A DNA stretch of 64,000 nucleotides from Amoebophrya sp. A120 (lineage: Eukaryota; Protista; Dinoflagellata). The stretch covers positions 62,001 to 126,000 of the forward strand of contig CAJINV010000031.1 in NCBI GenBank assembly GCA_905178155.1, given 5' to 3'. The position numbers and the translations under genes are program-made. Positions within the stretch are counted from its first letter, which is position 1. The number at the start of each line of letters is the position of its first letter. Below, piece by piece: positions 10,723 through 63,563 of this stretch. The notes beneath the pieces are model-generated. The model searched no databases. It worked only from the letters and a program-made list of their open reading frames with translations, and was not told the DNA's origin.

Positions 10723-12060
10723 ATGTCGGGCGGCGGCGGGGACCCCCCGCCTGCGGGGACGGCGGAGGGCGAGGCGCTACTCGCGAGTCTGTCGCGGGCG
10801 GGCTTCCCGGGGGCGCACCAGCACCAGTCGCCGCTGATCTCGCCCTCGAGCACGCTGAAGGGCATTCCAGGCGGGTTGAGCGCCATATCAAATGTAAAAG
10901 TGTCTGGGTCTGGAAGATTGCCAGGTTTGGCATTCACATTTTGCATGACTCCTGATGTCTGTGATGCATGCCCTAGCATCACAGATTTTGTGAGGGCTTC
11001 CTGTTGCTTATACCGCATGACAAATGCTCTTTCTGTGTAGCAAAACTTGGACTCTCTTTGCTGTTCATGCAATACAGATTTTTTTAGAATCCAAAATCAG
11101 CATGACAAGTTGGATTCTTCGAGACCCAGACATTTTTACAGTTGATACGCCAAGCTGCAGAGCGATGCGTCGAAGATCTCGATCGCCGACCTGGAGGAGA
11201 TCCGGCTGCTGGCGATATGGAGTGCAAAAGTATCGTACTCGTAGTAATCGCAGACATGCATTACAAATCTTGTTCTCAAGGTAAATCCGCATTACAAATA
11301 CGAGTGCGATACTTTTACAATGCATGAGCAACCCAGCCCAACAATGAGGAAACCATCGACGGGGTCGCGCGCCCGGGCCGCAACCTGTCCGCGATGGAGG
11401 TCACGCACCCGCCCTACCAAATTGTGGTCATCTACAACCAGAGCCGCCACGCCTCCAACAGCGTGCTCGCCGACGTGCGAGCGGTTTGGGGCCAGGCGGT
11501 GATCGTGGTGCAAACCGTGGAAGACATATCAAATGCAAGGATTATGTCAGGGTCTGGAAGAATGCAAGTTTATAGTCATGCTCGCCCAGCAAAAGAATCC
11601 TCAAGCCTGTCAACATGCACGCTAGTACTCAAGCAGACTAGAGCGCAAGTTTTCTTTCATGCACATCCGCAGTTTGCCAAATGCAGAATAGACAACACGT
11701 AGCAAGTCAAAATAAACTTGTCATGCTTCGTCGTCAACTGAAGCGTCCTCATGAAGATTTTCGTCCACCCCTGCATCACAAGTTTTTCAGACCTTGAGGG
11801 ATATTTGCACTTGATAAGACAACGCGGTGAGCGAGTCGACCGAGACTACAACGAACTCCGTTGCCAACAACCGCCTCCAGGGGGTCGACGACGTCATTCT
11901 CGTGCGGCCGGGGAAGTGGGGCGACCTGGACCACTTCAAGGAGCGCATGGTACTACACTGATAGAATACAACCGGGATCATATTGATGAAAATCTCGACT
12001 TTATTTTGGAATAAACTACAGGAAGAACAGGACTACTGAAGATTCATTTTTGATGTGTGC

Positions 12061-12094
<34 letters not shown>

Positions 12095-15000
12095 CGACCA
12101 CACGTGCTGCGCGACGAGAGCTTTTTTTTTGTGTGACTGATATGCGTTCCTCGATCAGTAGTTCCTGTGTCTACTAACTCAATCCGCGCAAGTTCGTGGT
12201 CAAGAACATCCAAAAAATAAATTCGTCCAATTCGTCTACTAGGGTCACTACGAGACACAGAATCCGTGGTTCTGGCAGGCCAGGCGGCACGGCGAAGTGG
12301 TTTTCATGGCGGGGTGGTCGGCGCTGGCCGAAAGCGCGGAGACGGGGCGCATCGTGAAGAACAAACTGGGCCTGGTGTGGCCGGGCACCGATCTATGGAT
12401 TGCAAAAATGTCTGGGTCTGGAAGAATGCAACTTGTGATGCGCATTTCAGAACACAGAAAGATCTCTCATGCATAGGTAGCAAAAGCTGCCCACTTTCTG
12501 TCACCAAAATGTGGGATTTGTCATGCGGATTCGGCATTGCGGAAGCTTCTCGAAACCTGTGATGCTAGAGCTTCCATGTCAGACCTTCTGTGTCATGCAA
12601 AAACAGCATGACTCTTCCAGACCCAGACATTTTTACATTTGATACGATCCGGACGTGAGCGACCGACTGGAGAAGATCGGCATGAAGCAGATCTTATCAA
12701 ATGCAAAAATGTCTGGGTCTGGAAGATTCCGAGACTTGTCATGCAGGTTTTCCATGATCCATGTCATCTGGAACGCAGCACCTAGCATGATAGATTCTGC
12801 GGGATCCCTATCATGCCTATCCTGCGTGAGAAACTTCCTCTCAACTTCGTCAAAAGTGGGCAACTTTTGGCATTCATGCAACACAGATTTTTGCATGATC
12901 CAGAATTAGCATCACAAGCTCCGACCTTCCAGACCCAGACGTATTTGCATTTGATAGATCTGCAAGAAAGTGGGCGCGCCCACCCCGCCCTTCACAATCC
13001 TGTCCGGCTATCGGGTGTAAAATAGACGTCCCCACCCCAGGAGAGTTGTCTTCACGAGGAAATTTGCAGTTACAGAAGCAGTTGTAAGTAATACAAGAAA
13101 CGCGCATTTCCATCATGAGAGGCATTTTCAGTCGTGTTTTGGTTTTGGAATTTGTGTTGCAGAGGTCCCAAGGATTGACTCTTGGGTGGGGAGGACGTTG
13201 TTACTCAGGATACCGGCCAGGACTTCGTCGCGAACATCGCTGATGAGGCCTCGAAGAAGGCGCTGATCGAGAAATTTGTAGGCCAAATATTGGAAATGAA
13301 CACCGCGGTGCCAGGATTGGTATTATTTGCATTTTTATCTAGTTTGACAGCACTTATCAAGAACCGATATAAGTAATTTCTTCTAGAAGAACTATCCAAT
13401 GTTTACTTCACTTTTAGGTTCTCCCACGTGATTGGGATGATGATAGATGTTGAGGCTTGGTGGAGTAGATTGCGTAGCTAAAAAGAACTTATCTATTGGT
13501 GGAGTAGATTGCGACCGTCTGTTCGCGAACAACTGACGTCGAACTTATCTATCAGGTGAAAAGTATTCACGGTGGTGGTGGCAAGGGGAGTGCACAAGTG
13601 GCAAACCCGCGGTCGCCGGACCAGGTTCGCGCCGCGGTGTCCCAGGTCTTGAACGAGATGAAACGGGCCGACGGAGTGTACTTCGAGGAGAAAGTGAATC
13701 ACGACGGGGACGGGCGATTCTACCAGTTGGAGCTGGAGCTGGACGGCACCACCGTGGCTAACGGCGGGCGGTTCGTTTGGTTTAATATGCATAATGCAAA
13801 AGCATCGCGTTAGTTGTATAAATCGCATGACAAAGTTCCTCAGCATGAGAAATGAAATTTGTAATGCGGCTTTGACTTGAGAAAGAAATTTGTAATGCGT
13901 GAGCCGGATTAGAAGTACGAGTGCGATACTTTTGCAATGCATATTCAACAAACGCCTGCAAAAGGTGGTGGAAATCGGACTCACGGACCAGTATTTGAAG
14001 GACTTGTCGGAAGCGCACGATAGCGGCTACGGCGACGATCTGCCCTACTTCATCCCGTGGAAGCTGTACTCCCAGGCGCGGCAGTGGGCCGCCAGCATCG
14101 CGGCAGAGGCGGGCAACAACACCCGCGCGACGCTGGAGGGCCTGGTGTGGCGCGATAAGGAAAAAAAATTCCATTTCGCTTTCATCGAGTGCAACCGCCG
14201 TCCCCAGGTGGAAAACGAGGCCCTAGCGTACAAGGATGAAAACACCTTCGTTCGTTGTCGTGTCGTGTTTGTTTTCTTTGCGAACTTGTGGTCCGGGTCC
14301 GGCAGTAGTAGTACTTCGAGTCGAGGAGGGGGGCCTCACACGCGGGAGGATTGAATTTCATTTTTTTTCCTGTCAAAAAGAGGTCCGAGACGCTCGCCAA
14401 TTTTCAAAAAAGGCCCAAAAAAGTGGCCGCGCTATCGACGAGCAGGTCCCCTTAGCGCCTATGCCGTCAACTCTTTCAAATTCGCCGTCAATTCGTTTTC
14501 GACCACGTGTGGACATGATTCTATTTGGACGAAGTGTTTTCAATTGCATATCAGGCTGCTAGAGAGAGACTCTTCCAACAACCGACGCTATACATTCGCG
14601 GAACTGATGATGCGAGCAAAGGGATACCCTGGTAAGTACTACAACGTCTTGATTGATGCGCTAATCTGGATTCCAGTGTGAAAATAGCCTCCCATAAAAG
14701 TCGTAAAGTACTACTACGCTGATATAAAGTTCTTTCCAGCCGTATACAACTATTCACATGCTTATACCACTTTTATCTAACACCGATCCATCGTGAATAA
14801 ACAAGGTTCCAACATCTTCCAGCCGACGCGCATGCGGAACGTGGCGTGCCACGCTCGCTGGCTGCATGGCGACCCGGACGAGAACGGCATGATTACCTAC
14901 AAGCCCGGCGAGGTGGTGGGGATGCAGGGACCCCAGTTTGCGTTTGTGCGTTCTGAGCTGATGCCGGCGGGGGAGATCTCCTTCACCAGCGACCCGCAGC

Positions 15001-18000
15001 TGGGGAAAGTGGTCATGTTGGCCGAGAACTGGCATCGGATGTGCGTGAACGCAGAGCGGTACTTCCATATGGATTGCAAATATGTCCGGGTCTGGACGAG
15101 CGCAGGAGTTATTTGTCATGCAGATTTTGTATGCTCGACGAGGACTGGAATGTAGGTTATAGCATGACTGGTCTTGGAAAGGCAAAGGCTTTGCAATGCA
15201 TGTGATCCCGCATGAGAAATACCGTTTCAGTATGGCAAAAAAGGACCATGTTGTGCTGCCTGCGCAAGATAAATTTTTGTGTGATCTACAGGACGCATGA
15301 CAGGTTGCAACCTTCTAGACCCAGACATGTTTGCTGCAGTGGATATTCCAGCTGCGCTATCCCACGAAAAAACTGTTTCACTGTGATGATCTTGCAAGAT
15401 CTGCATCACAAGTTTGTTACACATGACACAGAAAATTTGCCATGCGCGCTTCCCAAGGGAAAAGACGCTGAAAAATCCAATGTGCTGCAAGTGTAGCAAG
15501 ACAAATCGTTCTGTGCTCCATTCTCTGCATGACAAGTTCACAGTGAAACAGTTTTTTCTTGCGATATGCGCCGCCCGCTGGTGCTTGGCGAGGGCAGCAA
15601 GTACGCCGAGTGCATGCGAATATCAAATGTAAAAACGTCTGGGTCTGGAAGAATGCAACTTGTGATGCTGCGTTTGGATTCCAAAAAAATTTGTATTGCA
15701 TGAGTACTAAAGGAAATGCAACTTTTGCTACGCTGAGAAGGCATTTGTCATGCGGAATAGGCATCAAGAAGCCCGCAAAAAATCTGTATTGCTAGGGTAT
15801 GGATCACAGACATCATGGCTCATGCAAAATCTGCATGACAAGTGTCAGAATCTTCCAGACCCAGCAGACATTTTTGCATTTGATAGCGAAGGCTGTTCGC
15901 CAACTCCGAGTTTCAGTCCGGCCGGATCGCGAGCAACGAGACCTTCTCCGCCATCGAGATCCCGAACGACCAGCGGGTAACCTGCAGCAGCACCGTGCGC
16001 GCCATGCTGGAGGGCCCCGTCGCGGACGTGCTGGTCAACGGCTACCGTCCGGGGGAGGGGATCGACCCCGACCGGTACCCTACGGAAAAGGTGCTGCGCG
16101 CGGTGGAGCGCTTGTGCGTCCGGTTAAACCGCGAGGAAGCCCCGCCCCGGACCACGGTTTTCACCAAATTCAGTCGAGGGGAGGCGACGTTGAGCGAATA
16201 CCTCGACGCACTGAGAGTGCAGTTGGACGCCCAGGGTAAATAATGATGAACCTAAGTACTTCGACTTAGTTGTAGAAGTACACGTGCACGTGTAGAATAA
16301 CTTGGACTCAATTGTACGTACAACTTGTCCACTTTCATTACCTACGATTGTCGTTGGGGATGAGAAGTGTACTAACATTAATCCTATTTGTTTCGCCAGG
16401 TGGCGGTTGGGTGACGGTTGCCCCTCGGGACACGTGCCAGCAGGGCAACGACTCCGAGTCTGCCTCCGTGCAGTCGCTTTCGCGCAAAAACGCGGAGATT
16501 TTCGGCGAGCGTGCGGGCTGCGTCGGGTTTGAGATCGGGGGTGCCCAGTTCCAAGCCGGGCTGATCCGGGGCCTCGATCCGGCCAAGGTGTTGAAGCTAG
16601 GACTGCCCTACAACGTGCCCGCCTTCTCCCTGCAGCGGTCCCAGTACGTCAACGGCCTCACGGAGCTGCCGGAAAATGTGCGCAGGAAACTGTTCGACGC
16701 GACCGCGACGCTGACCTTCGAGCACTACTTCGGGCCGGTGCTGGGCGGGGGGGAGGGGCCGCTTACCTCCGGCGAATCGAAGTCCGGGCTAATGGCCCTG
16801 AGCCAGCGCACGAGCTCGCGAAGCCTGTTTGCCCCGTCGCCGCAGAAAGGGGGAACCACAGCCGCGGCACTACCTCCGAAGCCCAGTCCGAAGATCTACC
16901 GCTCCAGCAGCGGTTCGTTGGTGCGGCCCGCGAAGGATCCCGTCAACGACGGCGACTTTCCCAACGTCCCCAGCGAGTACCTACCAGTGGCCTTTTTTCC
17001 CTACAACTTCCACGCCGGGAACTACTGGGACCGGGCGAATCCGCTGGAGAAATCGCCGCAGGACGCCACCATCTGCGAAATGCTGGATGCAGGGCTGACG
17101 CCGCTTCCTACGTGGGTCTTTTCCCCGAAGTTTCCGCTTGAATTGCTCAAACAGTGGACGAAGCGGCAACTGCAGAACTTTGAGTCCTGCCGGCGGAAGT
17201 GCGAGCAGATCCGCATCAAGAACCCGGGCCAGGGCGTGCAGTGGACGGCCGCCGCGGTGTGGGCCCACGTGGAGTGCATACTAGCTGCGTACGCCGAGAC
17301 GCAGCACCTGAAGGACCGCAACAAGTTGCCGATCATCTACATCCACAACCACGATTTCAACGGGTTCAGCGCCCACGTGGGCTATGAACTGCTGAAGTTG
17401 GCGCAGAGCAAAAAGTACCGCTACCTCGTCGTCGACTGCGGGTACCGGAAGAACGGCACCCACAACGACAACACTGTGGTCTGCGCGGCTTTGAGCTTGA
17501 CGGAAGAGCAGAAGCAGGCTCTGCAACAGTACAACGAGAATCAGCAGCTGATCGAGAAGGTGCTAACGCGGTTCGACAGTCGGGAGTCGCAAATGACACC
17601 GTGGGACAGCGAGTGGGCGGGCGGCACGGAGGGCAGCGATCTGCGGATCGCGAAGGAGTACGGGCTGAGCCCCTTGCAGATCGAGAACGCCAAGAACGTG
17701 GCCTCCGACGTGTTCCCCCTGGAGCGCGCCGTCACGCCGTTTACCACACAGAAAAAAGCAGGCAGGTCATATAATCTGTAATGCGAAAATAGATACACAA
17801 AAAAATCTGTAATGCTTATCCTAAACAGCATGCTATGGGGCCGCCCATGACAGTTTTTTTTGTGTGTTTGTTTTTGCATCACAAGTAATACGCCCCGCCT
17901 GATTTTTTCTGTGGGATACCGTTCTCGGAGTACAAGCTGCGGCTGGGCATCGCCATCATGTATCAAATGCAAAAATGTCTGGGTCTGGAGCAAAGCAACT

Positions 18001-20106
18001 TGTCATGCTATATCTGAATCATGTAAAAATCTGTGTTGCATGATTACCAAAAGCTGTCCGCTTTTGACCTAATCGAGAGGCAGTTTGTAATGCAGGATAG
18101 GCATGATAGAACTCTCACAGAATCTGCCATGCTATGTCCTCCATATCAGATCCCATGGGTCATGGAAAACCTGCATGACAAGTCTAGCATTCTTCCAGAC
18201 CCAGACATTTTTACAATCCGTATCATGATCGAGGAAGCCATTTTCCCCAAGGACACACAGTCCGTGTACAGCTTCTTGAAGACCGGCGGCAAGCTGAAGG
18301 TCGGGGGGGACGTCCTTGTGGGGCTGCACAAGTGGGAAACGCTGGTGGACAAGCCGCCGGCGGTGGATTTGCTGCTGCACAACATGCGGTCGGAGCTCGA
18401 CACCGCGCTCAATCCGGGGAGCAATGCCGGGTTTCGCCCGCATTTTGATGCATTCGGCGCCGAGCAGTACTACACCGAGCTTGGGTACGGCAAGAAAGGG
18501 AAGGATCTGTACGCGGGAAAGGTCAAGGACCTGTCCTGCATGCTGCTGTGTCCCTGGGTGCTGCAGTCCACGCCCCGGGCCCTGCCGTCCATGACAAAAA
18601 TTGACCTATTACTGGACCACGGCCGCGTGGCGCAGGTACTTAGAAGGATTTGATGTTCTTTTCGGGTCTACTTACTTATCAGTTACGCGGGATATGCATT
18701 TGCGGGGTTCTTCTTGAAGAAGTAGATTCGCTGCACTATGGTCTTTTACCAGGAGATACTAGATCGATGGTGCACAACGAACGCGGTCTGGTACTGGAGC
18801 CTCTTGTTTTCTTCATCACACATAACAATTCAGTAAATCATTCTAATTTTTTCATATATGTTTTTACCGCGATATACTTCATCTTTACAGGCTCTCTTCC
18901 GCGGATTCGGGCGGCGGCAGAATCACGGCGAGATTCTGTTGGTGTTCAGTGCGAACGGGGAGCGTATGAACTGCAGAAGTGTCCGGGTCTGGAAGAATGC
19001 TAGACTTGCCATGCAGGTTTTCCATGACCCATGAGGTCTGGTATGTAGGACATAGCATGACAGATGCTGTGAGAGTTCTATCATGCCTATTCTGCATGAG
19101 AAACTGCCTCTCGATTAGGTCAAAAGTGGACCGCTTTTGGTAATGATGCAGCACAGATTTTTACATGATTCAGATTTAGCATGACAAGTTGCTTTGTTCC
19201 AGACCCAGACATTTTTGCATTTGATAGAGCGCGTTGTGGTGTCCAAGCCGGACCCGGATGCTGTCAAGTTCCTAGTATCAAATGTAAAAATGTCTGGGTC
19301 TGGAAGAATCCAACTTGTGATGCTGCATTTGGATTCCAAAAAAATCTGTATTGCATGAGTACCAAAGGGAATGCAATTTTTGCTACGCTGAGAAGGCATT
19401 TGTCATGCGCAATAGGCATCAAGCAGCCTTCAAAAAATCTGTATTGCTAGAGTATGTATCACAGACATCATGGCTCATGCAAAACGTGCATGACAAATCT
19501 CGCATTCTTCCAGACCCAGACATTTTTACATTTGATACCTAGGCGGTGCGGACGATGCAAACCGCATGGCCGGGGACAACGAGTTCGGCATTCCGGTGCC
19601 CGGCGAGATCCTGAGCATCGATGTCGCGGTCGGGCAGAAACTGGAGCAGGAACAGCCCTTCTTCACCGTCGAGAGCATGAAGATGGAGACGCGCATATGC
19701 TGACCAAAAACGGGGCCCATACCCCAGAATTGTCATGCAGTTTTGCATTTACATACGGGAAGATTTGTAATGCGTATCTCTATAATGTTGAGAGCGGCAT
19801 TTGTAATGCTGTATTAGCAGGGCAAGCATGTGTTTTATTTTCCTGATGCGGCTGTCCTTGATGAAGATGAACTGCACTGCAGCAGGGGCGAGAGGGACTT
19901 GTCATGCGTGTTGACAACTCTGAAAGCTTCTGGCTTTTTTGTGTTGCGAAATCCCCATCTTGACCATAGGGTCGTGTGGCGTCCGTTTTTACTCAGGATC
20001 GCGCATCAGCGTACCTGCCGAATTGCACGGGAAGGTGGTTGACACGGTCATCGCAAAGCCAAAAACGGTGCTGAAGCGCGGTCAGCCGGTTATCAGCTAC
20101 AAGTAG
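10723..20106 (+). CDS. PC: Pyruvate carboxylase-like multidomain biotin enzyme (BC + CT + biotinyl carrier), about 20 introns
   Basis: After removing elements: BC motifs MAGWSALAES, LEKIGMKQICKKVGAPTPP, KRLQKVVEIG, FIECNRRPQVEN; DVLVNG; CT motifs PRDTCQQ, FEIGGAQF, RIKN, IHNHD, AVTPFS; biotin site TVESMKMET; stop TAG at 20104-20106. Start codon uncertain. Confidence 0.9.
10886..11147. mobile_element. TIR introner element, family A (262 bp)
   Basis: TATCAAATGTAAAAGTGTCTGGGTCTGGAAG...GACCCAGACATTTTTACAGTTGATA; perfect TSD cgcca. Confidence 0.95.
11216..11326. mobile_element. TIR introner element, family B (short)
   Basis: TATGGAGTGCAAAAGTATCGTACTCGTA...TACGAGTGCGATACTTTTACAATGCATG; TSD ggcga/agcaa; frame restored (LLATQP). 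Confidence 0.85.
11527..11816. mobile_element. TIR introner element, family A (diverged)
   Basis: TATCAAATGCAAG...ATTTGCACTTGATA; TSD agaca. Confidence 0.9.
12060..12093 (+). repeat. (ATG)n microsatellite inside a GT-AG intron
   Basis: About 11 copies of atg. Confidence 0.9.
12394..12644. mobile_element. TIR introner element, family A (251 bp)
   Basis: Family A TIRs; TSD cgatc. Confidence 0.95.
12695..12956. mobile_element. TIR introner element, family A (262 bp)
   Basis: Family A TIRs; TSD gatct. Confidence 0.95.
13786..13943. mobile_element. TIR introner element, family B
   Basis: TATGCATAATGCAAAAGCATCG...GCGATACTTTTGCAATGCATA; TSD tttaa/ttcaa; gives FVWFNKRLQK. Confidence 0.9.
15068..15345. 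mobile_element. TIR introner element, family A
   Basis: TATGGATTGCAAATATGTCCGGGTCTGG...GACCCAGACATGTTTGCTGCAGTGGATA; TSD ttcca. Confidence 0.92.
15358..15566. mobile_element. TIR introner element, family C
   Basis: TATCCCACGAAAAAACTGTTTCACTGTGA...TCACAGTGAAACAGTTTTTTCTTGCGATA; TSD tgcgc. Confidence 0.92.
15621..15885. mobile_element. TIR introner element, family A (opposite orientation to 10886 and 51754)
   Basis: Family A TIRs; TSD gcgaa. Confidence 0.95.
17742..17918. mobile_element. TIR introner element, family C-like
   Basis: TACCACACAGAAAAAAGCAGGC...GCCTGATTTTTTCTGTGGGATA; TSD ccgtt; gives VTPFSEYK. Confidence 0.9.
17961..18222. mobile_element. TIR introner element, family A (262 bp)
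   Basis: Family A TIRs; TSD tcatg; near-identical inverted copy of 18965-19226. Confidence 0.95.
18965..19226. mobile_element. TIR introner element, family A (262 bp)
   Basis: Family A TIRs; TSD gagcg. Confidence 0.95.
19276..19537. mobile_element. TIR introner element, family A (262 bp)
   Basis: Perfect TIR of about 33 bp; TSD cctag. Confidence 0.95.
19696..20000. mobile_element. TIR introner element, family D
   Basis: TATGCTGACCAAAAACGG...CCGTTTTTACTCAGGATC; TSD gcgca; gives MKMETRISVP. Confidence 0.9.
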
Positions 20107-32570: not shown

Positions 32571-32637
32571 CCATGTCCCTGCGAGTAGAGGTAAGTAAAA
32601 ACGGACCCAGGCTCAACTACCACAGCCCAAAAAGAAG
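32571..32637 (+). repeat. About 66-bp dispersed direct repeat, copy 1
   Basis: CCATGTCC.TGCGAGTA.AGGTAAGTAAAAACGGACCCAGGCTCAACTACCACAGCCCAAAAAGAA, also at 33523-33588. Confidence 0.9.
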
Positions 32638-33522: not shown

Positions 33523-33588
33523 CCATGTCCATGCGAGTATAGGTAAGTAAAAACGGACCCAGGCTCAACTACCACAGCCCAAAAAGAA
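33523..33588 (+). repeat. About 66-bp dispersed direct repeat, copy 2
   Basis: Near-identical to 32571-32637. Confidence 0.9.
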
Positions 33589-49400: not shown

Positions 49401-52400
49401 TACGGCCGGATGGCACGGCCCTCTTGCGTTTTGGTCTTGCTCCCGCCGACGTCGTTCCTGTGGACCTCGCCAACCTGACTTCTAGTGCGATCCACATCAG
49501 CGCCAGCTCCGGAGACAGCTACAAGCTACTTGGCCCCACCGAACAAAAAGCATCAAAACGCCTGATGGAAGCGGTTTTGATGGGTAGTGGTTCTTCATCA
49601 GGAGGAGCTGGACAACAAGAACATTTTTATCGAGAGCGCAAGAAGAGTCGAGCGTGTCCTGGGAAGCGGGAAGTTGAAATCCAACTAAGTGAAAGCGATA
49701 AAGCGGTCTGGGGACAGTACTGCCACTCGTTTGTAATCTGCGAGGAGGAAAGGCGCAATAAGACGGGCGCAACGTCGGCGACCAGCTCTCGGCAGCAACT
49801 ATACGCGGAGGAGTTCTCGCAGCATCGAAGTGGTGGAGGTGCTCCGCCCCACAAGGACGAGCTGCAGCTTCTACACGGGCGCTGCCACGAGTGGAAAACC
49901 CTGAGCCAGTATCAAATGCAAGAATGTCTGGGTCTGGAAACTTGTGATGCTGGATGGCGTCTCATGATGAGGCCACAAATGCTGGCTCAGCATGACAAGT
50001 TTCTGAGCTCCTAGGTGTTGCCTATTCTGCATGACAAACTGCCCTTCTGCATCACAGAAAAGCGGAGCTCTTGGGTAACGTGCATGACAGATTTAAGAGT
50101 CATGCCAGACAAGCATGACAAACATGAATTCTTCCAGACCCAGACATTTTTACATTTGATAGCCAGATTTTCACGGGGGTCCGGGTGTCGGCTCGCACCG
50201 ATTCCGAGGTTCACCAGACCGCGGCTGGGACCTTGCTACGCGATCTGGAGGAAATGAGGCACCCTAGCAGCCGTCCGGACTGGAGAAGCATCGACATATG
50301 AAAACAGACAACGAAACTCCCCTCTGACCTCGAAATTCGATCATGAAATATGTGTGTAGAAGGATTACGCACTGATCAAGACATTAAGCATGAATCAGCT
50401 TTTTACTAGCATTTCGCTTGCTTGTCGTGTAAACAAGCCTGAGAAGAAGCATGAACCGGGAATACAGAAGATCGGTGCAACACGTTGGAGTGCTACCGTT
50501 GACGGAGGAAAAGAAATGCTGCCTTGTATCTATACTTGTAGTAGCGATGTTGAAGCGCCGCAGGAGTAGTTATAGTCCCTGCGTTGTTCTTGAACTTGTG
50601 TCTGTGCTGTCATGTTGTTGATCAAAATCTGCCTGAGCCTGCAGATGAGGCGGAGGTGGAACAACGCTTCCATTTGATACGATGTGTCGAACTACGTGAA
50701 TGTGGCTGCGGGAACCCATCTGGCGGTGACGTTTGTGAGCGCGGGTGCGGACGGGAAGCCGGCTCCGATGGGTTACCTGGACATGGTCAAGGGGCTCGTG
50801 CACAAGAAAGCGCGCGGCCTGCATCAGAAATACTTGTCCGACCTGCTGGTGCCGCTGCCGGCCCGTATTATGAACGAAAACTCGAAGAAACAGGTGTACC
50901 GGCTGGAGGGCATGCGGTGGCTGAACGACCCCAGTATTGACTACTCGAAGCCGTTGTCGGCAGCCGCGAAGTATGCATTGCAAATATGTCTCCTGGGTCT
51001 GGAAACCTGTGATGCTGGTTTGCGAATCATAAAAGCAGCCTCCAATATGGGGACGCGCATGACAAGTTTCTAAGCGACTAGGTCTTGCGTCAAATGCATG
51101 AGAAACTGCGTTTTTGCATTACAAAAAAATAGACTGGTGGCGCAACATGCATGACAAATCCTCCTCTCCTGTCAGCAGAGCATTACAAGTCTGGTAATCT
51201 TCTTCCAGACCCACACATTTTTGCAGTGGATACGTTGCGGCAACTAGATGAGAACGAGGACCAACGCGCGTTTTTGCCGGCCGGCGTGCTACTCGGCGGC
51301 CACGGGCAGGCGGACAACCAAATTGAACCGTACGTGAGCGCCTTCGCGTGGACCAAGTTCTTGCGCGAGCAGTTGGCCCCATTGGCAAAGCAGTGGTTCA
51401 ACATCGAGCACCAGTCGACATCTTCTGCTGCTCGGAAGGAGGGCACGAAAGGACAAGAAGAGGAAACATTGTCAGGCATCACGGGAAGGAGCAGCGGTAC
51501 GAGACGGTCGGCGGAGAATGAAGCCGAGGGAGAGGACCCGCGGGACGGGAGCACTAGTCATCCACAGAAGCGGTGGGTGCAGCCGGATGAACAAGAGCAA
51601 GTCCTTGGCACGTCACACCCCGAGAATATTACTAGCACGCAGGGACAAGAAGAAGAAGTGCGGAGAACAGCAAGAGCATCTTCAAAGAGCCCCTTAATAC
51701 CCCTCGTGCTAACTGGTGGACAGGCCAGTGCGATTTTGCGCGCGGCGGGACCGTATCAAATGCAAAAATGTCTGGGTCTGGAAGATTCTGAGACTTGTCA
51801 TGCACGTTTTGCATGGGCCATGATGCCTGTGATGCATACCCTAGCAATACAGATTTTCTGAGGGCTTCTTGATGCCTATTCCGCATGACAAATGCCTTCT
51901 CAGCGTAGCAAAAACTGCATTGCCTTTGGTACTCATGCTATACAGATTTTTTTGGAATCCAAATGCAGCATCACAAGTTCGGACTCTTCCAGACCCAGAC
52001 ATATTTGCATTGCATAGACCGAAATCGAACCATGGCGATGAGACGCTCCGGTATTTGCGAGAAAAGTTCGGGATTGTGGTCTTGGCGGGCTACGATTCCT
52101 ACGTCCACTGCGGCACCAAGCAGATGGAGAACTGGACGTCGCGGTCGCCAGGTAGTTTACAACAACAGCACGACGGCTTATTTCAAAACAATACCGCCCT
52201 CGCAGTAGAAACTACGAAGCGGTCCTGTCGTGGGTTCGCACCGGAGGAAATCCGGCGACGCGCCGAGCAGTACATGCATAGTAAGGGGGAAGAGCAGGAT
52301 GATGAGTCTCCGGGAAGATCACCGCGGAAGAACAAGACGACGACAAGGAACAACGGCCCGGCAGCTCTTTATAATTCTTCCGGAAGACCAATGAGCAGGA

Positions 52401-55072: not shown

Positions 55073-58000
55073 ATGCGGGGCTCCCGCGGACAACAAGAGA
55101 GCGCAGGCGGCGAAACGCCGGGTGGAAGCGCCGGGAACGATGCAGACCCTTCTCTCGGCGGAAGATCTTCAGGTTTACTTCAGAATGAAGATCCGAATGA
55201 ACAAGATGAGAAGATCTTGTGGTCGGAGGCGGACATTTCTTACATGGAGCAGTGGCTCAACGACGCGGAGAAGAGGCAGCTCCGGAAGAAGATACATGTG
55301 ATTAAGGAGTGCAAGGGAAAGTGTCGCACCTTGCAAACTATCCAATGCATCAAATAGGTCTGGGTTCTGGAAGACGAGTGCGAGATCTGTCATGCAGCTT
55401 TTGCTTGACCAAAGTCCGATCGGGCATGCAAACTCTAGCATCACAGATTTTGTTGAGCAGGTACTTACCCCACTGCCTAATCCGCATGACAAATCCACTG
55501 TTTCGGTAAAATAAGAACTGGGGCCTTTTGCTAGCCATGCATGACAGATTTTGTCATGGTGTAGACTTCTGCAAATCGCAAATCTGAATTTTTCCAGAAC
55601 TAGACACATTATATATTTGCAATGCATACAACCCATGGTAGACACTCAGGGGAAAGGAGAGCCCCTGGTGGAAGAGACGGGTCAAGGCTTGGAATATGTG
55701 ACGCGGCGACGGCAGATTCTGGAGTACTGTGAGGAGCAAAATACGGGGGTCCGTAACTTGAAGGGCGCTGCAGCATCGAGACAAGCGGAAGCGCGGAGAG
55801 AAGAGGAACGGCAACAGCAACGGAGGAAAGGCGCGCTGCCGGTGCAGCACCGCGGAGACGGACCACCCGGACCGCAAGTAGAAAGGCCGTTACTCCAAAC
55901 TTATTCACCGCAAAAGTATAATAAATCGTGTAGTCTACTTACTACTCGTATATGAAAAGATTCTTGCTGAAGTAGATGTCTTGCATGACATTACCATTAG
56001 ATCTAGCAAATCTTATCGGAATTATCCGCATGACAAATTTTCACCGCTGTTCGTGAGAAAATTTATCATGCAAAATAAATGTGTACGACTACGTCTACAA
56101 CGCTTTTGCACCAATGCATAAAACTTTACTTGAGGAACAATATCAAGAAGCTCCAGCGATCGACGAGAGTCGGCACGCTGCGACACGGGTAGAAGTACCG
56201 GCGAAAATGAATCCCACTGGTGCCGTCCAGGTGTTGGACTTCGGCTGCAAGGAGCCGTCTGCGTCGAGTGCCACTGCTTCGGGTTGTAACATCTTCCAGC
56301 AGCAACCTTCCAGCAGTAGTTCTCGACCACCAGTAGCTTGTTCGTCTGTGACAGCACTAAAACCCGGTGGGGGACCACTCGGGAAACCAGAACAGTTGTT
56401 GATGTCGCGGCCCATACAATGTACCAGTGATGAAGTAGTGTTTTCAAAATCAAAATTTGGAGAGCGAGATGCTTGCTTTCGTTTTCTAGCGGAATGTTTT
56501 ATTTCTGACCCATTCAATTGCATACAAATGGCATATGTTTTCGTTTTCTTCGCATGGATGTCGGTTTTTCAAATAAACGTCGTCGGCGCTACTTTTCAGG
56601 TTCCGACGAATTTACTCAAGATTTACTCGACCGAATTTGTGCCGATCATCGCGATTGTTCCAAAGAAGTCCGTCTGGGGCTGTGGAACAAAAACCCGACT
56701 CCACCGAGGCCAACGGGTCAGGACACGACTGCACTTCTTGTTCCCGAAACGATGAACAACAGGGCAACACTTCGAAACCCCGCTGGGCAAGAACATCCAC
56801 TTGCACAGAACGCTGAAAATAAGGTCGTGCAGCACGACGACGACCACGTTGATAGCGAGAGTGTCTACTTCGAGCGGCCGCCCGATAATTGGAGGTCGAG
56901 GTCTGGGTCTTGGATGCCGGACGAGGAGGTCAACTCTGCTTCACCAAAGAACGAAATCTACGTTGGCCCAGATCTACTTGCTTCTAGCAGTAGTGGCAGC
57001 TGCAAGAACATGTTGCCGAGTGGACAAAAGTCCCCTTCTGCTTTTGAGGGCCTAGGCGCACGACCCGAGTTGGGCGACGGGGAGGACAGCAGCAGTATTT
57101 TGGAAGAAGAGGAAGATGTGTGCGCTGTGGCGCGGAACCCCCTCTGCCATCTGCTAGCGGACGATGAAAGCAGTTGGAGAGAAGTGCTACCAAACTGCAT
57201 CAACCGTCGTGCCAGGAATTGGCTCGGTAAAATTTATTTGTGTCGAGGATCTTCACTTTTGAATGATGATGTTCGTCCGCCTGCGCACTGTATGTTATGA
57301 CTGAGGTTGAGTCATTTGAGTCGTGAAAATGTAGTGGCATATGAAATTTAGAGGACAATTTTACTTATTTTGGTTGGAACAATGGAAGAACAAGCAAGTG
57401 CCTACCAATTTTGCCGACTGCCTAGCGTGGCACGCTCGCAGACCATAACTGTTGGTGCACGACGATTTCTCGAGAAGCTACTGCAACCTGCAGCGGGAAC
57501 GCCTCGACCAATCGGACGTCGACGCTTACACCAACCGCATTGCGCTCATCCTGCGCGTGACCGGGCACATCGACGCAGGTGGTGGTATCATCGGCCCGGC
57601 CGAGGGGGCCCAGACCACCCGGAATGCAGCACGGAACTTTTTGGCGTACTCGGTGCCTCTCAACACCAGGGCCGACGACCTGCCATCACTTGCAGGAGCT
57701 TCAGCACAAGGAACTTCATCTTGTGATGTGCCTTTGGCTTTACCGCCGCCGAGCACAGATTTGACTGATACGCTACGCGATTTCTTATCAACGAGTTTGC
57801 AATTTTCATCCGATAAAAGTTCTCTGGCGGAGGAAGTTGACGTTGAGGACTCAATTTCTGCTGAAGGATCATATGCATTGCAAATATGTCCTCTGGGTTG
57901 TCTCCTGCTGGTGCTGGAAGACTGCGAGATTTGTTTGTCATGCTAGTCTGACATGCCGCTGCAATTTGTATTGCATGGCCACCAGCAGTCTCTCTTGCCT

Positions 58001-59564
58001 GTCATGCAAGAACGCAGTTTCTCATGCGAAATTCGTAGCGCAGCAGCACGACGAAACTTGTCATGCCTGGCGGCGCATTGCAGTGCATTTATGTTTCACA
58101 GACTTTCATCACAAGTTGAAGTTGAAGTTTGAGTTTCCAGCAGACGCAGACATATTTGCAACGCATAAAAGAAGTAGTTCATCTTTCGGGTCTTTCGCCC
58201 CGGACCACGCACTGCTTGTGTACATTCCGCAAGCGGAACTGAGTCGCGCTTCGGAACAGGCGTTACCACTGAAGAAGCCGAACTTCGAACATTCCGCATT
58301 TGCGATCCTGAATGAAGTTACGAAGCAGGTAGAAGAATAAATACATAGCAGACGTCTCTAGTACTTCTCTATCTCTTTATGTTTGCAAGAAGAATTGCAT
58401 ACTTGCAGCCCGAAAATTATCAATCTCCGAAAATTCTAGAAAAAAAGCTTTCAAATTCAACTTCGACTACATCGGAGATCGATTGCCGAAATCGAATGAC
58501 AATAATAAAACTCTACCGTAGTTGCAGACCGCAGATATTGGGACGACGAACAAGGACTTGAAGCAGAAAACCACCAACGGCGGCGTAGGTCTGCTGTGCC
58601 TCCTGGCCCACTCCGCGCAGGAGGAACGGCACTGCTTGGAGCTGAAAATCCGGCCACGCGAGGCGACGCTGCAATCGTGGCTAGACGGCAAGCCGGATGC
58701 TCGGCGTGACGAAATGTTGTCGAGGACCACCTGCGCAAAACTCGCTGGTGCAACCAAAACCGAGACCTTCTTCCTGAAGCAGCAGATTGAGGCAAAAACA
58801 ATCGTCGAGACCCGAGCGCGCGGGTTGGGAGATGTCCTGTCTTGGTGTGGGCAGGACAAGAACTTCGGCGACCACTACGAAATGAGCTTGGTGGCAAATG
58901 CGTTACCACCAGCAGAGGCAACCACGAGTGGACCACCGGTGGACTTGCTCGACTTAGAGCCCCTTTCTGCTCCCGGATTCTTTCTCATTGCGTTCACGCA
59001 AGTTTCGACCCAAAACGGTCGCTCCGAGGTCCTTCGTGATTTCCATCTCCCGCCCGCATGCAGGTACATAGTTCTTAATCGGACTTTGTGTTTGTCGAAC
59101 TGTTCTACACGAACAAATTGAAGATGAAATGCTGAAAAATTGAAATGGTGCAGCTTCCCGATGTAGTTTTGCAGAAATAACCAGTTGTTGAAACCCAGAG
59201 CTGCTGCAACTTTATCATTTCTTCTTGCACGACGACCTGGCGTCGCAGTTTTTGTTGTCGCAAAATGTGTTTAAATTTCTTCACCAGATCGCTGTACCTC
59301 TACCGGTGGGCAGAAAAGCGTGTGGCGTGGGGAAAGTGCGATGGCGCGGCGTGCTCGTTGCAACGGCAGAACCTGGGGTGTAACGTTATTACCGTCAAAG
59401 AGGACCGGACGGAAATGGGTCGGGATGGCAAAACGCGTACCGTCGAGAAGCAGTTCTGCAGCTTCTGTCGTGGCGAAAACCTGCATTTACCGAAAAAGGC
59501 GATCATTCGCTCCGGTTACAAACTGGATCTCGGCTTCGGATTGTACTACGGAGTTTATCGTTGA
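55073..59564 (+). CDS. Hypothetical multi-exon protein (could be more than one gene)
   Basis: Chain of + strand GC-richer ORFs (55073, 55551, 56081, 56518, 57452, 58522, 59265); two junctions restored by element removal; no family recognised. Confidence 0.5.
55339..55628. mobile_element. TIR introner element, family A (diverged)
   Basis: TATCCAATGCATCAAATAGGTCTGGG...ATATTTGCAATGCATA; TSD caaac/caacc. Confidence 0.88.
57872..58167. mobile_element. TIR introner element, family A (diverged, TSD eroded)
   Basis: TATGCATTGCAAATATGTC...GACATATTTGCAACGCATA; flanks gatca/aaaga; removing element + 5 nt keeps the frame. Confidence 0.85.
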
Positions 59565-59721: not shown

Positions 59722-62700
59722 TTGACGAGCGCAACGGCGCCTAGCAGCAGAGCCCGGGGTCACCAAGTAGGGCCCGGAGCACAACCGTCGTCCTCGTCGG
59801 CTGCACCGCCGGCGGTGCAGTATCCGGATTTCATCACCTATGGTGCCACTGGCAGTCCGCTCTCGGAGGCAGCTCTCGACGACGGGGGCCACGGTAGTGG
59901 TAGGAGTCCACCTCCCAGCGGGTTGAAGGTCAGGTGGGGCCCTGGATCTACTTCGAACAACAAGGGCGTCGTCCACATCACGGCGGTATCAAGGGCAAAA
60001 ATGTCTGGGTCTGGAAGAGTTGGAACTTGTGATGCAAACTCTGGAACACACAAAAATTTGTGTTGCATGAGCGCCAAAAGCTGTCCATTTCTTGGTACGC
60101 AAGTAGAAAGTTTCTCATGCGGGACAGGCGTCACGAGGCGTGCTCAAAACCTGTGATGCTTTTGCCTGCACCAGACGCCATTTGCGCGATCCGAAATATG
60201 CATGACAAATCTAGAAATCTTCCAGACCGAGACACTTTTGCATTGGATAGGCGGCCTCTTGTGATGTGTCCAGGGAGAACGTGGAGGACGTGCTGCAACA
60301 CGTTGAGACCCAGTTGCGGTATGAACTGCAAATATGTCTGGGTCTGGAAGAATGCAAACTTGTCATGCTCGGCCGACAATGCACAAGAGTCTGTCATGCT
60401 TGTTGTGCTACAGTGCCACTTCTTTGCCATGCAAAAAGGCAATTTGGCACGCGATTAACGCTAGACGTAGCCAACCAGAAACTTGTCATGCGCGGCTCCG
60501 CAATACAGTTTGCGTATCATTCGGACATCAGCATGACAAGTTTCCAGACCCAGACATATTTGCAATGCATATGTGGTCGATCGGAGCGATTCTCCCGGGA
60601 GGTGAGGAAGCTTCATCCACCGGGGATCAAACTACAAGTGCCTGGCAACCTGCGACGACGAGAAACTTCGAGGTGGTGGATTTCGATTTCTCAAACAACC
60701 GACAACTTGATTGCTACTGCACCCGGATGCTCACGAATTGGCTTCAGTACCACGAGCTCATGCCGCGCTCTTTGAAGCTGTTCAAGTGCAGTCTGGGAAA
60801 CCGGGGCGCCAATGTGATTGCCTCGTACTTAATTTTATACTTACTAGATAAACTACTTACAACCAAATAATAGATCTCGTACTTCCACCTTTACTGCTGC
60901 TTCAGTTCCTCGGTTGTTTCCGTCGGCAGTGATAGCAGTCTTTATTCCGTTTGATTGATGTTTCTTCGAACAATTTCTTCTACTTCCAAACTGAAACTAT
61001 TGCTCGTCCGCTATTTTTCTCCACATAAGATAATTCAAAATCAAATTCTGTCATTGCGAAAAATTTTTGTCCAGGTTTTTACGGAATTTCAAACGGTTTT
61101 TACTGGGCGCGCGGATGGACGCAGGTGACACGTACCCATGGGTGATGGAGGAACTGCACTTGTCCGATAACTACATCGAAAACGCGGGCATTGCGCCACT
61201 CATCAAGTTTCTCAGCGACGAGACCACCGAGAAATTGTTACGACAGTGCACTATTCCCCCTCACCCTCATTTGTCATGCAAAATCCCAACTTTACCTTCG
61301 GCCTGTTAGCACTTTTTGCATGACAGACTCCACAAGCCACAACAGCCCTGCAATCCTCTTGGAATTTGTCATGCAAAAGCTGCATCTTTGCCAGCGCTTG
61401 TGTTGCTGTTCATGCAACACGAATGAGGGGGAGGGGGAGTTGTGCACTCTCATAATTGTACCCGCGCGTGTACGAGCCGTCGGTTGGCGACAGAAAACAA
61501 ATGATTGCGGAGCTTCAGGACAGAGGTACTTGCTTTATAAAGTAAGTTGTAAACTTCAACTTCTCGCCCTGCGATACTAAATTGATGACTAACTAAACAA
61601 AAGTCTACATTATACCACGCGTCCGCTCAACATTCTCTTCTCGTCAGGCCTTCCTTTTTTTTGCCTCCCTCCTCGCTACGAAGAAGACGCGAAAAACGCG
61701 ACGTGCATAGAAATTTCAGCAATAAATTCAGTAGACATTCATTCTTGGCTGGTGCCCAATTTGATGCGGATGTGAAGAAGTAGACCCTTTGTTTTGTTGT
61801 AATTACTTCTCAACACGCAAGGCTTGTCCAGAGTAAATTCCAAGCTCCGAGGCACAACTTGAAATGCTTCACCGTAAGTACGACAAACTACCAGGTTACG
61901 ATAGCGAGGAGCACAGATTCACCTACGGGATGCGCATTATCAAAATGTTGAAAAAATCCTCCCTCCCCGTACTCAAACTCAAAATGGAATACTGGTGTGC
62001 GCACATTGTGCGTCAGAAGCTCACCCATTTTGAATACTACCGGGAGGGTGGATTTTTCTTTACGATACACTTTTGCCGCCCGCTTATCAAATGCAAGCAT
62101 GTTGTCTTGTTTCGATCTGGGTCTAAACTTGTGAGAATGCTTGCTTGCAACTGCAGTTTCGTGATGCTTTCATCGAGTGTACCTAAGCTTGACTTGTCTT
62201 GTGTGTAGCTTGCGGCATTTTTATTGGATGGCAAAATACGTCGCGCTCGCGCTTTGTTTGCGAGTCATAGTACATAACAGGTTCTCGTTCATGAATGCCA
62301 GACACACAATACAAGAGCATTTTTTATTGTTCCCGACCAAGACTACATATTTGCGATGCATACCGCTGTGGGTTCGCCTCGATCGCAACCTTTTGGACGT
62401 GCCGAAGTTGGTGCTTGTCGAGGGTATGTCGGTGTGTGATCTGCAAAAACACAGGTGGAGCCAGCTGCGCGGTAAAAAGTTCCGTTTCCTGGCCATTGCC
62501 CTATCCCGTGCAGAAAGAAACATCTCGTCCACGACGACTCAAGAGTCAAGCTGCGAATGCTGCAACATCGAACTGCGAAGAAATATAGTTATGCCGAAGT
62601 TTTGGAAGTCACGCATGACAAGATCTCATCTGTAGTGTAGCACATGCGCGCAAAAACAGCTTGAAGAAAATCTTCATGACAACTCTGGGGTGTCTGTGGG

Positions 62701-63307
62701 CACCAGCTCCGGTTTTTTTTTACACAGGATACGCGGGGGAGAAAAATTACCAGACGTACCCGGTTTTCCGGGACGAGTGTGCCGCAGAATTGTACCCAGC
62801 GGCCCACTTCAGCCATATCTATAAGCAATGGGCACGCACGGCGACGAGAGGCCAGTACAAGCAGACCAACCAGTCTCCCTTCGAAAACGACGACTCTGGG
62901 TGGAATTCCTACGGGTACGGGGGCTCCAGCTGGGATATCAGAATGAAAAATCCCCCCTCCCCATATCAAAACTGAAATATGTGATGCAGATTTGTGGTCA
63001 CAAATCAGCTTTGTCATGCTAGAAGGCAAAAGATGCGGACTGTACTGCTGCCTAGCGTGGGAAAGCCTTGCAGCTCCAGGATGACAGGAGGCAACTGGAA
63101 GTGGGAAACAGCATGACAGATTACCTGCAATCTAGGCCGCAGATTCGTCTCTTGGCCTTCTCGCAATACAAGTCGATTTGTGTACTCAAATACAGCATCA
63201 CAAATTTGCGCATCTTCCGTTTCCGATATGGGGAGGGGGGATTTTTCCTTTTGATATGGGAGAAAAAGTCAGGAGGTAGTCCGTCCCCGAAATGGTGGAA
63301 GAAATAA
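59722..63307 (+). CDS. RNI-like leucine-rich-repeat protein (start uncertain)
   Basis: VVDFDFSNNRQL, PRSLKLFKCSLGNRGA, MEELHLSDNYIENAG, EKLYPR, PLWVRLDRNLLD after removing 7 elements; stop TAA at 63305-63307. Confidence 0.7.
59987..60249. mobile_element. TIR introner element, family A (263 bp)
   Basis: Family A TIRs; TSD ggcgg. Confidence 0.95.
60320..60571. mobile_element. TIR introner element, family A (252 bp)
   Basis: Family A TIRs; TSD tgcgg/tgtgg. Confidence 0.95.
61239..61454. mobile_element. TIR introner element, family F
   Basis: TACGACAGTGCACTATTCCCCCTC...GAGGGGGAGTTGTGCACTCTCATA; TSD attgt. Confidence 0.92.
61938..62067. mobile_element. TIR introner element, family I-like, short (130 bp)
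   Basis: TATCAAAATGTTGAAAAAATCCTCCCTCCC...GGGAGGGTGGATTTTTCTTTACGATA; TSD cgcat/cactt. Confidence 0.8.
62085..62362. mobile_element. TIR introner element, degenerate family A
   Basis: TATCAAATGCAAGCATGT...ACATATTTGCGATGCATA; TSD ccgct. Confidence 0.88.
62502..62731. mobile_element. TIR introner element, family D-like (diverged)
   Basis: TATCCCGTGCAGAAA...TTTTTACACAGGATA; flanks tgccc/cgcgg; removing element + 5 nt keeps the frame. Confidence 0.75.
62936..63256. mobile_element. TIR introner element, family I
   Basis: Family I TIRs; TSD tggga; closely similar to 47651-47965. Confidence 0.95.
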
Positions 63308-63310
63308 GAC

Positions 63311-63563
63311 TATCAAGTGTAAAAATGTCTGGGTCTGGAAACTTGTGATGCTGGGCGGCGTATCATGAGGAAGCCGTAAGTGCTGGCTCAGCATGACAAG
63401 CTTTTGAGCTTCTAGGTGTTGCCTATTCTGCATGACAAACTGCGTTTCTGCATGACAGCAAAATGGGGCTCTTGGGTAATGTGCATGACAGATTTAAGAG
63501 TCATGCCAGACTAGCATGACAGAGCTCGCATTCTTCCAGACCCAGACATTTTTGCATTTGATA
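63311..63563. mobile_element. TIR introner element, family A (253 bp), at the stop codon / 3' UTR boundary
   Basis: Family A TIRs; TSD aagac overlaps the TAA stop. Confidence 0.95.

What the first reader, a model, noticed from the sequence alone, without database searches (positions are those of the whole stretch)
10886..63563. Family A lengths cluster at 252 and 262 bp, one helical turn apart
Lengths from my coordinates: 262 (10886, 12695, 17961, 18965, 19276, 40578, 43155, 46936), 261-263 (50972, 51754, 59987), 251-253 (12394, 41380, 48065, 49910, 60320, 63311), even where internal sequences are clearly diverged. A 10-bp step suggests a DNA looping or phasing constraint, reminiscent of the periodic lengths of TA-bounded ciliate IESs. 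It raises the possibility that a DNA-level step constrains these elements.
Basis: partly seen in the sequence, partly recalled or inferred. Interest (0 to 1): 0.7.

Follow-up and report, generated by a model that had tools for sequence, protein, structure and literature searches.

The report
Helically spaced sites in jumping introns
The 252- and 262-base repeats are two lineages of a known kind of jumping intron that is cut out of RNA; they differ by a 9-base deletion that moves a shared sequence motif about one DNA turn closer to the element's end, which suggests the motif is where the still unknown mobilising protein likely binds.

Summary
The two length modes are real: in 140 further copies from a related assembly, 26 are 251-253 bp and 39 are 261-263 bp. 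They are not a ladder (0 at 241-243, 4 at 271-273), and 11 of 28 window copies with other lengths were left out. The elements are not IESs. They have TAT…ATA ends with a 5-bp target duplication outside the TA, sit in exons, and are removed with one duplication from RNA-like contigs (10 of 10 checked), while DNA-like contigs keep them. This matches the published Amoebophrya A120 introners. The 252 mode is one clade with a 9-bp deletion beside one end; a nested group independently lost 9-12 bp there (mode 251). What looks new is a motif, GCAT(G/C)ACAA, shared by nearly all introner families here. It first occurs at 32-35 or 40-44 bp from an end and recurs 31-33 bp later (10 of 14 end types). Indels of 2 bp or more are 3-9 times rarer on propagating branches than on terminal ones. 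A phasing constraint is therefore likely, acting on end-to-motif spacing during mobilisation rather than on total length or DNA excision. The binding protein is inferred, not found.

The parts
10886..11147 (+). Family A introner, clade P, 262 bp, TSD CGCCA (strand = arbitrary family orientation)
11527..11816 (-).
12394..12644 (-). Family A, group D (11-bp spacer deletion, nested in P), 251 bp, TSD CGATC
12695..12956 (+). Family A, clade P, 262 bp, TSD GATCT
14832..20106 (+). Host gene (end approximate): 931-aa frame after removing 8 introners (each plus 5 bp) and 2 GT-AG introns (16236-16399, 18636-18890); C-terminal Biotin_lipoyl domain
15068..15345 (+). Family A, clade P, 278 bp, TSD TTCCA; omitted; removed in RNA-like contig, intact in DNA-like contig
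15358..15566 (.). Other family (E209), 209 bp, TSD TGCGC; same motif; removed in RNA-like contig
15621..15885 (-). Family A, clade P, 265 bp, TSD GCGAA; omitted; removed in RNA-like contig
17742..17918 (.). Other family (I171), 177 bp, TSD CCGTT; removed in RNA-like contig
17961..18222 (-). Family A, clade P, 262 bp, TSD TCATG; removed in RNA-like contig
18965..19226 (+). Family A, clade P, 262 bp, TSD GAGCG; removed in RNA-like contig
19276..19537 (-). Family A, clade P, 262 bp, TSD CCTAG; removed in RNA-like contig
19696..20000 (.). Other family (F type), 305 bp, TSD GCGCA; removed in RNA-like contig
28530..28796 (+). Family A, clade P, 267 bp; omitted
29462..29759 (.). Family A-derived, degenerate, 298 bp; omitted
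29819..30014 (.). Family A-derived, 196 bp; omitted
30590..30738 (.). Other family (S150), 149 bp, TSD CGGCA; same motif
31184..31463 (.). Family A-like ends, degenerate, 280 bp, TSD CGCGC; omitted
37907..38165 (+). Family A, clade P, 259 bp; omitted
40578..40839 (+). Family A, clade P, 262 bp, TSD TCTGG; reference copy
40619..40627 (-). First subterminal motif of a P copy, position 42 from the end
41380..41631 (+). Family A, clade Q, 252 bp, TSD AGCGA
41412..41420 (-). First subterminal motif of a Q copy, position 33 from the end (9-bp spacer deletion)
43155..43416 (-). Family A, clade Q, lengthened to 262 bp by several small private insertions
46936..47197 (+). Family A, clade P, 262 bp, TSD TCCTC
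47651..47965 (.). Other family (B315), 315 bp, TSD CTTCC; same motif at 44-45 and 76
48065..48316 (-). Family A, clade Q, 252 bp, TSD CTGTT
49910..50161 (+). Family A, clade Q, 252 bp, TSD GCCAG; an RNA-like contig stops at 49903, where the cut is expected, and resumes downstream
50972..51232 (+). Family A, clade Q, 261 bp through private insertions
51754..52016 (+). Family A, clade P, 263 bp, TSD GACCG; removed in RNA-like contig (268 skipped)
55339..55628 (.). Family A-derived, degenerate, 290 bp; omitted
57872..58167 (.). Family A-derived, degenerate, about 296 bp; omitted
59987..60249 (-). Family A, clade P, 263 bp, TSD GGCGG
60320..60571 (-). Family A, clade Q, 252 bp
62085..62362 (.). 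Family A-like ends, degenerate, 278 bp, TSD CCGCT; omitted
63311..63563 (+). Family A, clade Q, 253 bp, TSD AAGAC

Best explanation
Family A is a non-autonomous, inverted-repeat introner that is removed from RNA with one copy of its 5-bp duplication, and its 252/262 modes are lineages separated by a 9-bp deletion that shifts a shared motif, a likely protein-binding site for mobilisation, by about one helical turn. Shown: TAT…ATA ends and a 5-bp duplication; exact removal in RNA-like contigs; retention in DNA-like contigs; clade structure; motif positions; depletion of indels of 2 bp or more and of motif changes on internal branches. Inferred: a transposase, or a partner protein, binds double-stranded GCAT(G/C)ACAA sites that must lie on a fixed face of the helix relative to the end (about 32 or about 42 bp in) and to each other (31-33 bp, three turns). 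Copies that gain 3 or 6 bp would still be spliced but would rarely seed new copies; shifts of 1 bp or about 10 bp would stay mobile. An integrase-type DDE enzyme is the likeliest candidate, by analogy only. Component odds: introner identity about 0.95; clade origin of the two modes about 0.95; spacing constraint acting on mobilisation about 0.7; helical phasing as its cause about 0.55.
For: Ends and duplication: 122 of 144 perfect at 5 bp. RNA removal: 6 of 6 gap predictions exact, covering 10 elements, 6 of them family A of 262-278 bp, in both orientations; one of these contigs also skips a GT-AG intron. The full 931-aa frame appears only for element+5 (102-753 aa for -2, 0, +3, +4, +6). Clades: on an interior-only tree of 163 rows, Q is one side of a 100/99 branch and the D core (8 rows) is nested in P. 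The seven interior segments differ by at most 1 bp among P, Q and D modes while the end-to-site spacer is 49/40/38; P-Q interior identity is 53%. Motif: 97 exact matches against 1.66 expected; 31-33 bp same-direction spacing in 10 of 14 end types against 1.59 expected; inward-pointing sites outside family A fit a 10.5-bp period (n = 39, R = 0.41, p = 0.0013). Indels of 2 bp or more: 120 terminal vs 6 internal, or 110 vs 17 under the other tie rule (p = 1e-13, 2e-6), while 1-bp indels are little or not depleted (p = 0.04, 0.80). Motif core: 4.5 terminal vs 0.47 internal changes per site; other interior 11.9 vs 5.6. No pairing covariation between motif copies in 7 of 8 comparisons.
Against: No binding protein or autonomous element was found; Farhat et al. 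report no transposase in A120. Only two well-supported propagated shifts of about 10 bp exist, both in one spacer where private deletions of 7-13 bp also occur, so mutation bias could explain their size. One propagated +4 (5 copies) and a few +3/+6 pairs exist. Families may share ancestry: the S150 interior clustered with family A, so the 14 end types are not independent, and two inherited architectures could mimic a period. Outward-pointing sites show no 10.5-bp period (p = 0.08-0.53), and the strictest inward test gives p = 0.037 with a best period of 9.4. One family-A spacing, 39 bp, is off phase. In group D the shifted site is itself damaged. Internal-branch depletion could also arise if copying adds substitutions or if copies recombine. 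Run kinds are the tool's guesses. The direct RNA evidence for family A covers only P copies.
Confidence: 0.6

Rival explanations
1. Ancestry only: two or three master copies happened to differ by 9-11 bp, and the near-helical step is coincidence.
For: Q is a single clade and the net 10 is -9-1-1+1. There is no third rung and no cross-family length period. Deletions of 7-13 bp are common in that spacer even in private copies. Families may be related.
Against: Interior spacing is held to within 1 bp across 47% divergence. Indels of 2 bp or more are 3-9 times rarer on internal branches. 0 of 14 first sites fall at 35-39 among one-per-type families (post hoc p about 0.001-0.013).
Confidence: 0.2
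2. The motif and its spacing serve RNA splicing, as hairpins or sites for an RNA-binding factor; the 10-11 step reflects RNA geometry.
For: The elements are removed at RNA level without splice consensus, and their ends fold into a long stem on either strand. Motif and ends are also conserved on terminal branches relative to other interior sites.
Against: No pairing covariation in 7 of 8 motif pairs, and the variable end positions match their own partner no better than a random end (0.696 vs 0.686). Copies of 265 and 278 bp with insertions are removed exactly. Q has asymmetric ends (33 vs 41). The motif decays faster than the inverted repeat on terminal branches (4.5 vs 2.9 per site).
Confidence: 0.1
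3. Total length is constrained by looping between the two ends or by wrapping on nucleosomes or DVNP.
For: The modes are 10 bp apart; one family is 149-150 bp, near a nucleosome core (core size recalled). Introners in other species insert in linkers (PMC9860276 passages).
Against: No peak at 242, 272 or 282. Family lengths are not periodic. Propagated shifts of about 10 bp occur only in the end spacer, not elsewhere inside.
Confidence: 0.08
4. IES-like programmed DNA excision in some life stage.
For: Exonic insertions that begin and end with TA; removal restores the frame.
Against: The duplication is 5 bp outside the TA, whereas IES excision leaves one TA (PMC3464196 passages). DNA-like contigs span whole copies with no other letters. 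Contigs lacking the elements also lack GT-AG introns. Assembled contigs drop rare alleles and most joints were not displayed, so rare excision is not excluded.
Confidence: 0.02

Closest known systems
Introner elements of Amoebophrya sp. A120 (Farhat et al. 2021, PMC7789003; Gozashti et al. 2025, PMC12130899)
   Same: Non-canonical introns with terminal inverted repeats and 3-5 bp direct repeats. A120 ends start TAT, then 7 variable bases, then AAA. Listed A120 family lengths include 252/260, 149, 208, 214-227, 278, 305 and 319-322 bp (22 of 58 rows seen), close to families here.
   Different: The main text of PMC7789003 has no mention of periodicity, subterminal or helical features. The shared internal motif, its spacing and the branch-specific constraint were not found in print in my searches. 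Figs S12 and S19-S25 could not be seen.
GingerRoot and Ginger integrase-type DNA transposons (PMC6839031)
   Same: GingerRoot has 5'-TA…TA-3' termini, long inverted repeats and a sequence-unspecific duplication. An A120 introner family has inverted repeats and a Copia/Gypsy-like frame.
   Different: The duplication is 6 bp in GingerRoot and 5 bp here; Ginger ends are TG…CA. No transposase was found for these elements, and GingerRoot is not described as spliced in the passages seen.
Tn7/CAST-type ends with several spaced transposase sites (bioRxiv 10.64898/2026.07.09.737429)
   Same: Multiple internal sites per end, asymmetric ends, and placement constrained by DNA geometry (passages). A 5-bp duplication for Tn7 and Mu is recalled.
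   Different: Bacterial, with 20-bp sites and dedicated proteins; no homology was tested. It is a works-like comparison only.
Paramecium IESs (PMC3464196)
   Same: Intragenic, transposon-derived, precisely removed; a step of about 10 bp in length.
   Different: IESs are unique-copy, mostly under 150 bp, show many peaks, are excised from DNA and leave one TA. Here: repeated, 250-270 bp, two peaks, removed from RNA, 5-bp duplication.

Membership tests
Amoebophrya A120-type introner | Terminal inverted repeat beginning TAT + 7 nt + AAA | tested here: met
Amoebophrya A120-type introner | 3-5 bp direct repeat at the exon boundary | tested here: met
   122 of 144 perfect 5-bp repeats
Amoebophrya A120-type introner | Removed from transcripts without GT-AG | tested here: met
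   10 of 10 elements checked in RNA-like contigs; run kind is the tool's guess
Amoebophrya A120-type introner | Repeated, in many families | tested here: met
   168 family-A copies aligned and about 14 end types
Amoebophrya A120-type introner | Sequence identity to a numbered published family | not testable with these tools
Ciliate TA-IES | TA boundary with one TA left after excision | tested here: not met
   Both TAs go and one 5-bp repeat stays
Ciliate TA-IES | Excision from DNA | tested here: inconclusive
   DNA-like contigs retain elements, but rare alleles and other life stages are not visible
Ciliate TA-IES | Multi-peak 10.2-bp length periodicity | tested here: not met
   Two peaks only
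Tc1/mariner or Stowaway MITE | TA target duplication | tested here: not met
GingerRoot/Ginger superfamily | TA…TA termini | tested here: met
GingerRoot/Ginger superfamily | 6-bp duplication (GingerRoot) | tested here: not met
   0 of 144 at 6 bp; 122 at 5 bp
GingerRoot/Ginger superfamily | Integrase-type DDE transposase in an autonomous partner | not testable with these tools
   No whole genome is held; unpaired ends could be followed only 330-480 bp

The most novel reading that the evidence does not exclude
The many A120-type introner families share one mobilisation code: a 9-bp site, GCAT(G/C)ACAA, arrayed on one face of the double helix (about 32 or 42 bp from the end, 31-33 bp apart) and read by a single unidentified integrase-like transposase. 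Splicing reads only the terminal hairpin. The motif would be the bait to catch the missing enzyme, and DNA geometry would decide which introns keep spreading.
Probability: 0.4. Interest if true: 0.7.

Novelty: new member of a known kind. Interest (0 to 1): 0.45.

Why it matters
The elements themselves are published. How Amoebophrya introners move is open: the describing paper found no transposase in A120 and argued against general transposase-mediated mobilisation. A motif shared across families with unlike ends, conserved mainly on propagating lineages and spaced in helical steps, points to DNA-level mobilisation by one protein. It gives a concrete probe for finding that protein and its autonomous element. 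It also separates the signals for jumping (inner sites) from those for splicing (terminal hairpin) in one of the most extreme cases of intron gain.

Tried and rejected
IES-like excision, a TA duplication and total-length periodicity were tested and rejected. Local or end-to-end RNA pairing of the motif showed no covariation. A period in outward-pointing sites was not significant. A genome-wide histogram was not possible: no genome is held and the metagenome records are not held for handle searches. The family-A end pattern had 0 matches in viral contigs and 1 in prokaryote genomes (not examined). No RNA holder was listed as on record. One 2026 raw RNA run gave only 122 partial reads, all on repeats, so it was uninformative. 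Joint tables were dominated by repeat artefacts, with 756 and 71 rows not shown, so absence of DNA excision joints is not shown by them. The long middle exon of the host gene had no Pfam or PDB match; the likeness to pyruvate carboxylase is recalled and unconfirmed. My first in-silico splice used an intron end one base off; one search corrects it. Two copies were mislabelled by my pattern (L134, L135) and corrected. 50972 was aligned one base too long. Earlier scan notes held nothing for this genome or sequence.
Full report
Observation. The 17 listed copies exist at the stated starts with lengths within 1 bp. A fuller inventory finds 28 family-A or A-derived copies in the window; the 11 not listed are 196-298 bp and none is in either mode. 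Strict pairing gave 148 copies, 140 with a duplication matching at 4-5 of 5 bases. Lengths peak at 252 (15 copies; 7 at 251) and 262 (23; 11 at 263) with right tails; there are 0 at 241-243, 4 at 271-273 and 2 at 281-283. Fifteen more copies with damaged ends were all off-mode. The bimodality is real; a ladder is not.

What the elements are. Each begins TAT and ends ATA, with about 30 bp of inverted repeat. A 5-bp direct repeat of free sequence lies outside the TA (122 of 144 perfect at 5 bp, 11 at 2 bp, 0 at 6 bp). They interrupt coding sequence in both orientations. In the gene starting at 14832, removing eight elements each with 5 extra bases, plus two GT-AG introns, gives a 931-aa frame; other offsets give 102-753 aa and retention gives 107. 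The last exons match Biotin_lipoyl PF00364 (E 4e-6; 1 of 3 exons scanned). Contigs of runs guessed to be RNA skip exactly element+5: six gap predictions covering ten elements, six of them family A, all match to the base, and one contig also skips a GT-AG intron. DNA-like contigs run through whole copies at 15068 and 11527 with no other letters. For Q copies the RNA evidence is indirect: a contig stops at 49903, where the cut for 49910 is expected. This anatomy is that of the introner elements of Amoebophrya A120, whose ends start TAT + 7 nt + AAA with 3-5 bp direct repeats (PMC7789003; abstract, sections 10-12 and 16, passages and supplement legends seen; figures not seen). Published A120 family lengths resemble those here (PMC12130899; passages and 22 of 58 A120 rows of supplement file 8 seen, file 14 not searched). 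The host is therefore likely an Amoebophrya-type syndinian; this is inferred from the elements, not from a marker gene.

Where 252 and 262 come from. I aligned 168 copies. A tree of the interior only (163 copies of 240-285 bp, ends and spacers removed) splits clade Q (51 rows, mode 252, support 100/99) from P (mode 262). Group D (mode 251; an 8-row core at 99/93 and four neighbours) is nested in P (two pattern mislabels corrected). Measured between motif anchors, the modal segments for P/Q/D are: end-to-first-site 49/40/38, then 9/9/9, 23/22/23, 10/10/10, 30/30/30, 9/9/9, 54/53/54, 31/31/31, and last-site-to-end 47/48/47. So 252 = 262 - 9 - 1 - 1 + 1, and 251 arose by a separate loss at the same spacer (9-12 bp, depending on the ancestral state). 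Modal or minimal lengths of 23 families (149-321 bp) show no 9.5-11.5 bp period (p = 0.24; 0.09 for 13 multi-copy families; 0.64 for 20 non-A families).

What survives of the phasing idea. GCAT(G/C)ACAA occurs 97 times in the window against 1.66 expected, almost all within these elements, across families whose inverted repeats differ beyond the first bases. Read inward from an end, its reverse form first appears at 32-35 or 40-44 in most families. Among one-per-type families, 0 of 14 first sites fall at 35-39 (post hoc p about 0.001, or 0.013 counting one per type). Over positions 28-100, inward sites outside family A fit 10.5 bp (n = 39, R = 0.41, p = 0.0013); the strictest set (first site, one family per end type, n = 22) gives p = 0.037 with a best period of 9.4. 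Outward sites show no period (p = 0.08-0.53). Same-direction sites 31-33 bp apart occur in at least half the copies of 10 of 14 end types, against 1.59 expected and in none of 200,000 simulations. Q's deletion moved the first site from 42 to 33, from one register to the other. These families may be related (S150 clustered with family A), so the tests overstate independence.

The constraint acts on spreading copies. On a tree of 165 copies (three degenerate rows dropped), segment-length changes of 2 bp or more number 120 on terminal and 6 on internal branches (11.8 vs 1.3 per unit length; p = 1e-13), or 110 vs 17 under the other tie rule (p = 2e-6). One-base changes are 61 vs 17 (p = 0.04) or 50 vs 27 (p = 0.80). 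Terminal changes are mostly +3 and +6. The large internal ones are the Q and D shifts, one +4 in five copies, and a few +3/+6 in two or three copies. Motif-core sites change 4.5 times per site on terminal and 0.47 on internal branches, against 11.9 and 5.6 for other interior sites (Fisher p = 7e-10); conserved inverted-repeat sites change 2.9 and 0.02 times. P and Q are 53% identical inside yet keep spacing within 1 bp. Copies with insertions (265, 278 bp) are still spliced exactly. Motif pairs do not covary as RNA stems in 7 of 8 comparisons, and variable end positions match their own partner no better than chance. Recombination among copies or substitution-prone copying could inflate internal branch lengths; the 1-bp control only partly answers this.

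Mechanism. Most likely a non-autonomous DNA transposon is inserted by a 5-bp staggered cut (shown by the duplication), tolerated because the transcript's terminal hairpin directs removal of the element plus one duplication (removal shown, hairpin role inferred), and mobilised by a protein that binds phased inner sites (inferred). TA…TA ends occur in GingerRoot, an integrase-type transposon with a 6-bp duplication (PMC6839031 passages). An A120 introner family carries a Copia/Gypsy-like frame between inverted repeats. Geometry-limited placement of several inner sites is described for CAST ends (bioRxiv 10.64898/2026.07.09.737429 passages). These are analogies; membership was not shown. Paramecium IESs differ in boundary, copy number, size range, number of peaks and level of removal (PMC3464196 passages). 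The nucleosome link for other introners comes from PMC9860276 passages.

Novelty and verdict. The elements are known. The shared motif, its registers and the branch contrast were not found in the searches, nor in the main text of PMC7789003; subscription papers and supplementary figures were not visible and may bear on this. Interest 0.45.

Noticed in passing
family A copies, window and L002-L168: Private insertions are enriched at 3 and 6 bp (68 and 27, against 40 at 2 bp, 15 at 4 bp, 10 at 5 bp), many of them short tandem duplications, although they lie in introns of either frame class. This suggests a mutational bias of this genome.
   Followed up: partly
positions 4-15 of both element ends: Six end positions are hypervariable on the interior tree (34 terminal changes per site vs 12), independent of the partner end, and the same variants recur in another family (S150). 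Ends seem to be exchanged among copies.
   Followed up: partly
window 15351-15357: Two introners leave a 7-base micro-exon between them, and the RNA-like contig length fits its inclusion.
   Followed up: yes
L071:441-921: A 481-bp family-A copy with a perfect 5-bp duplication and an unrelated-looking insert of about 220 bp.
   Followed up: no
window 36065-36735: F-type ends about 670 bp apart with several motifs between them; probably nested or adjacent elements, not delimited.
   Followed up: no
window 30590-30738 and 14 copies in the window and loci: Family S150 is tightly 149-150 bp (10 of 15 copies), close to a nucleosome core length (recalled).
   Followed up: partly
window about 7460-7550, 7980-8160 and 9540-9820; 32572-32635 and 33525-33590: Duplicated intergenic stretches without introner ends, seen by eye.
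   Followed up: no
window about 63840-63970: Short tandem array of a unit of about 25 bases, seen by eye.
   Followed up: no
L172:5001-5020: Single exact match of the 20-base end pattern in an alphaproteobacterial MAG; probably chance.
   Followed up: no
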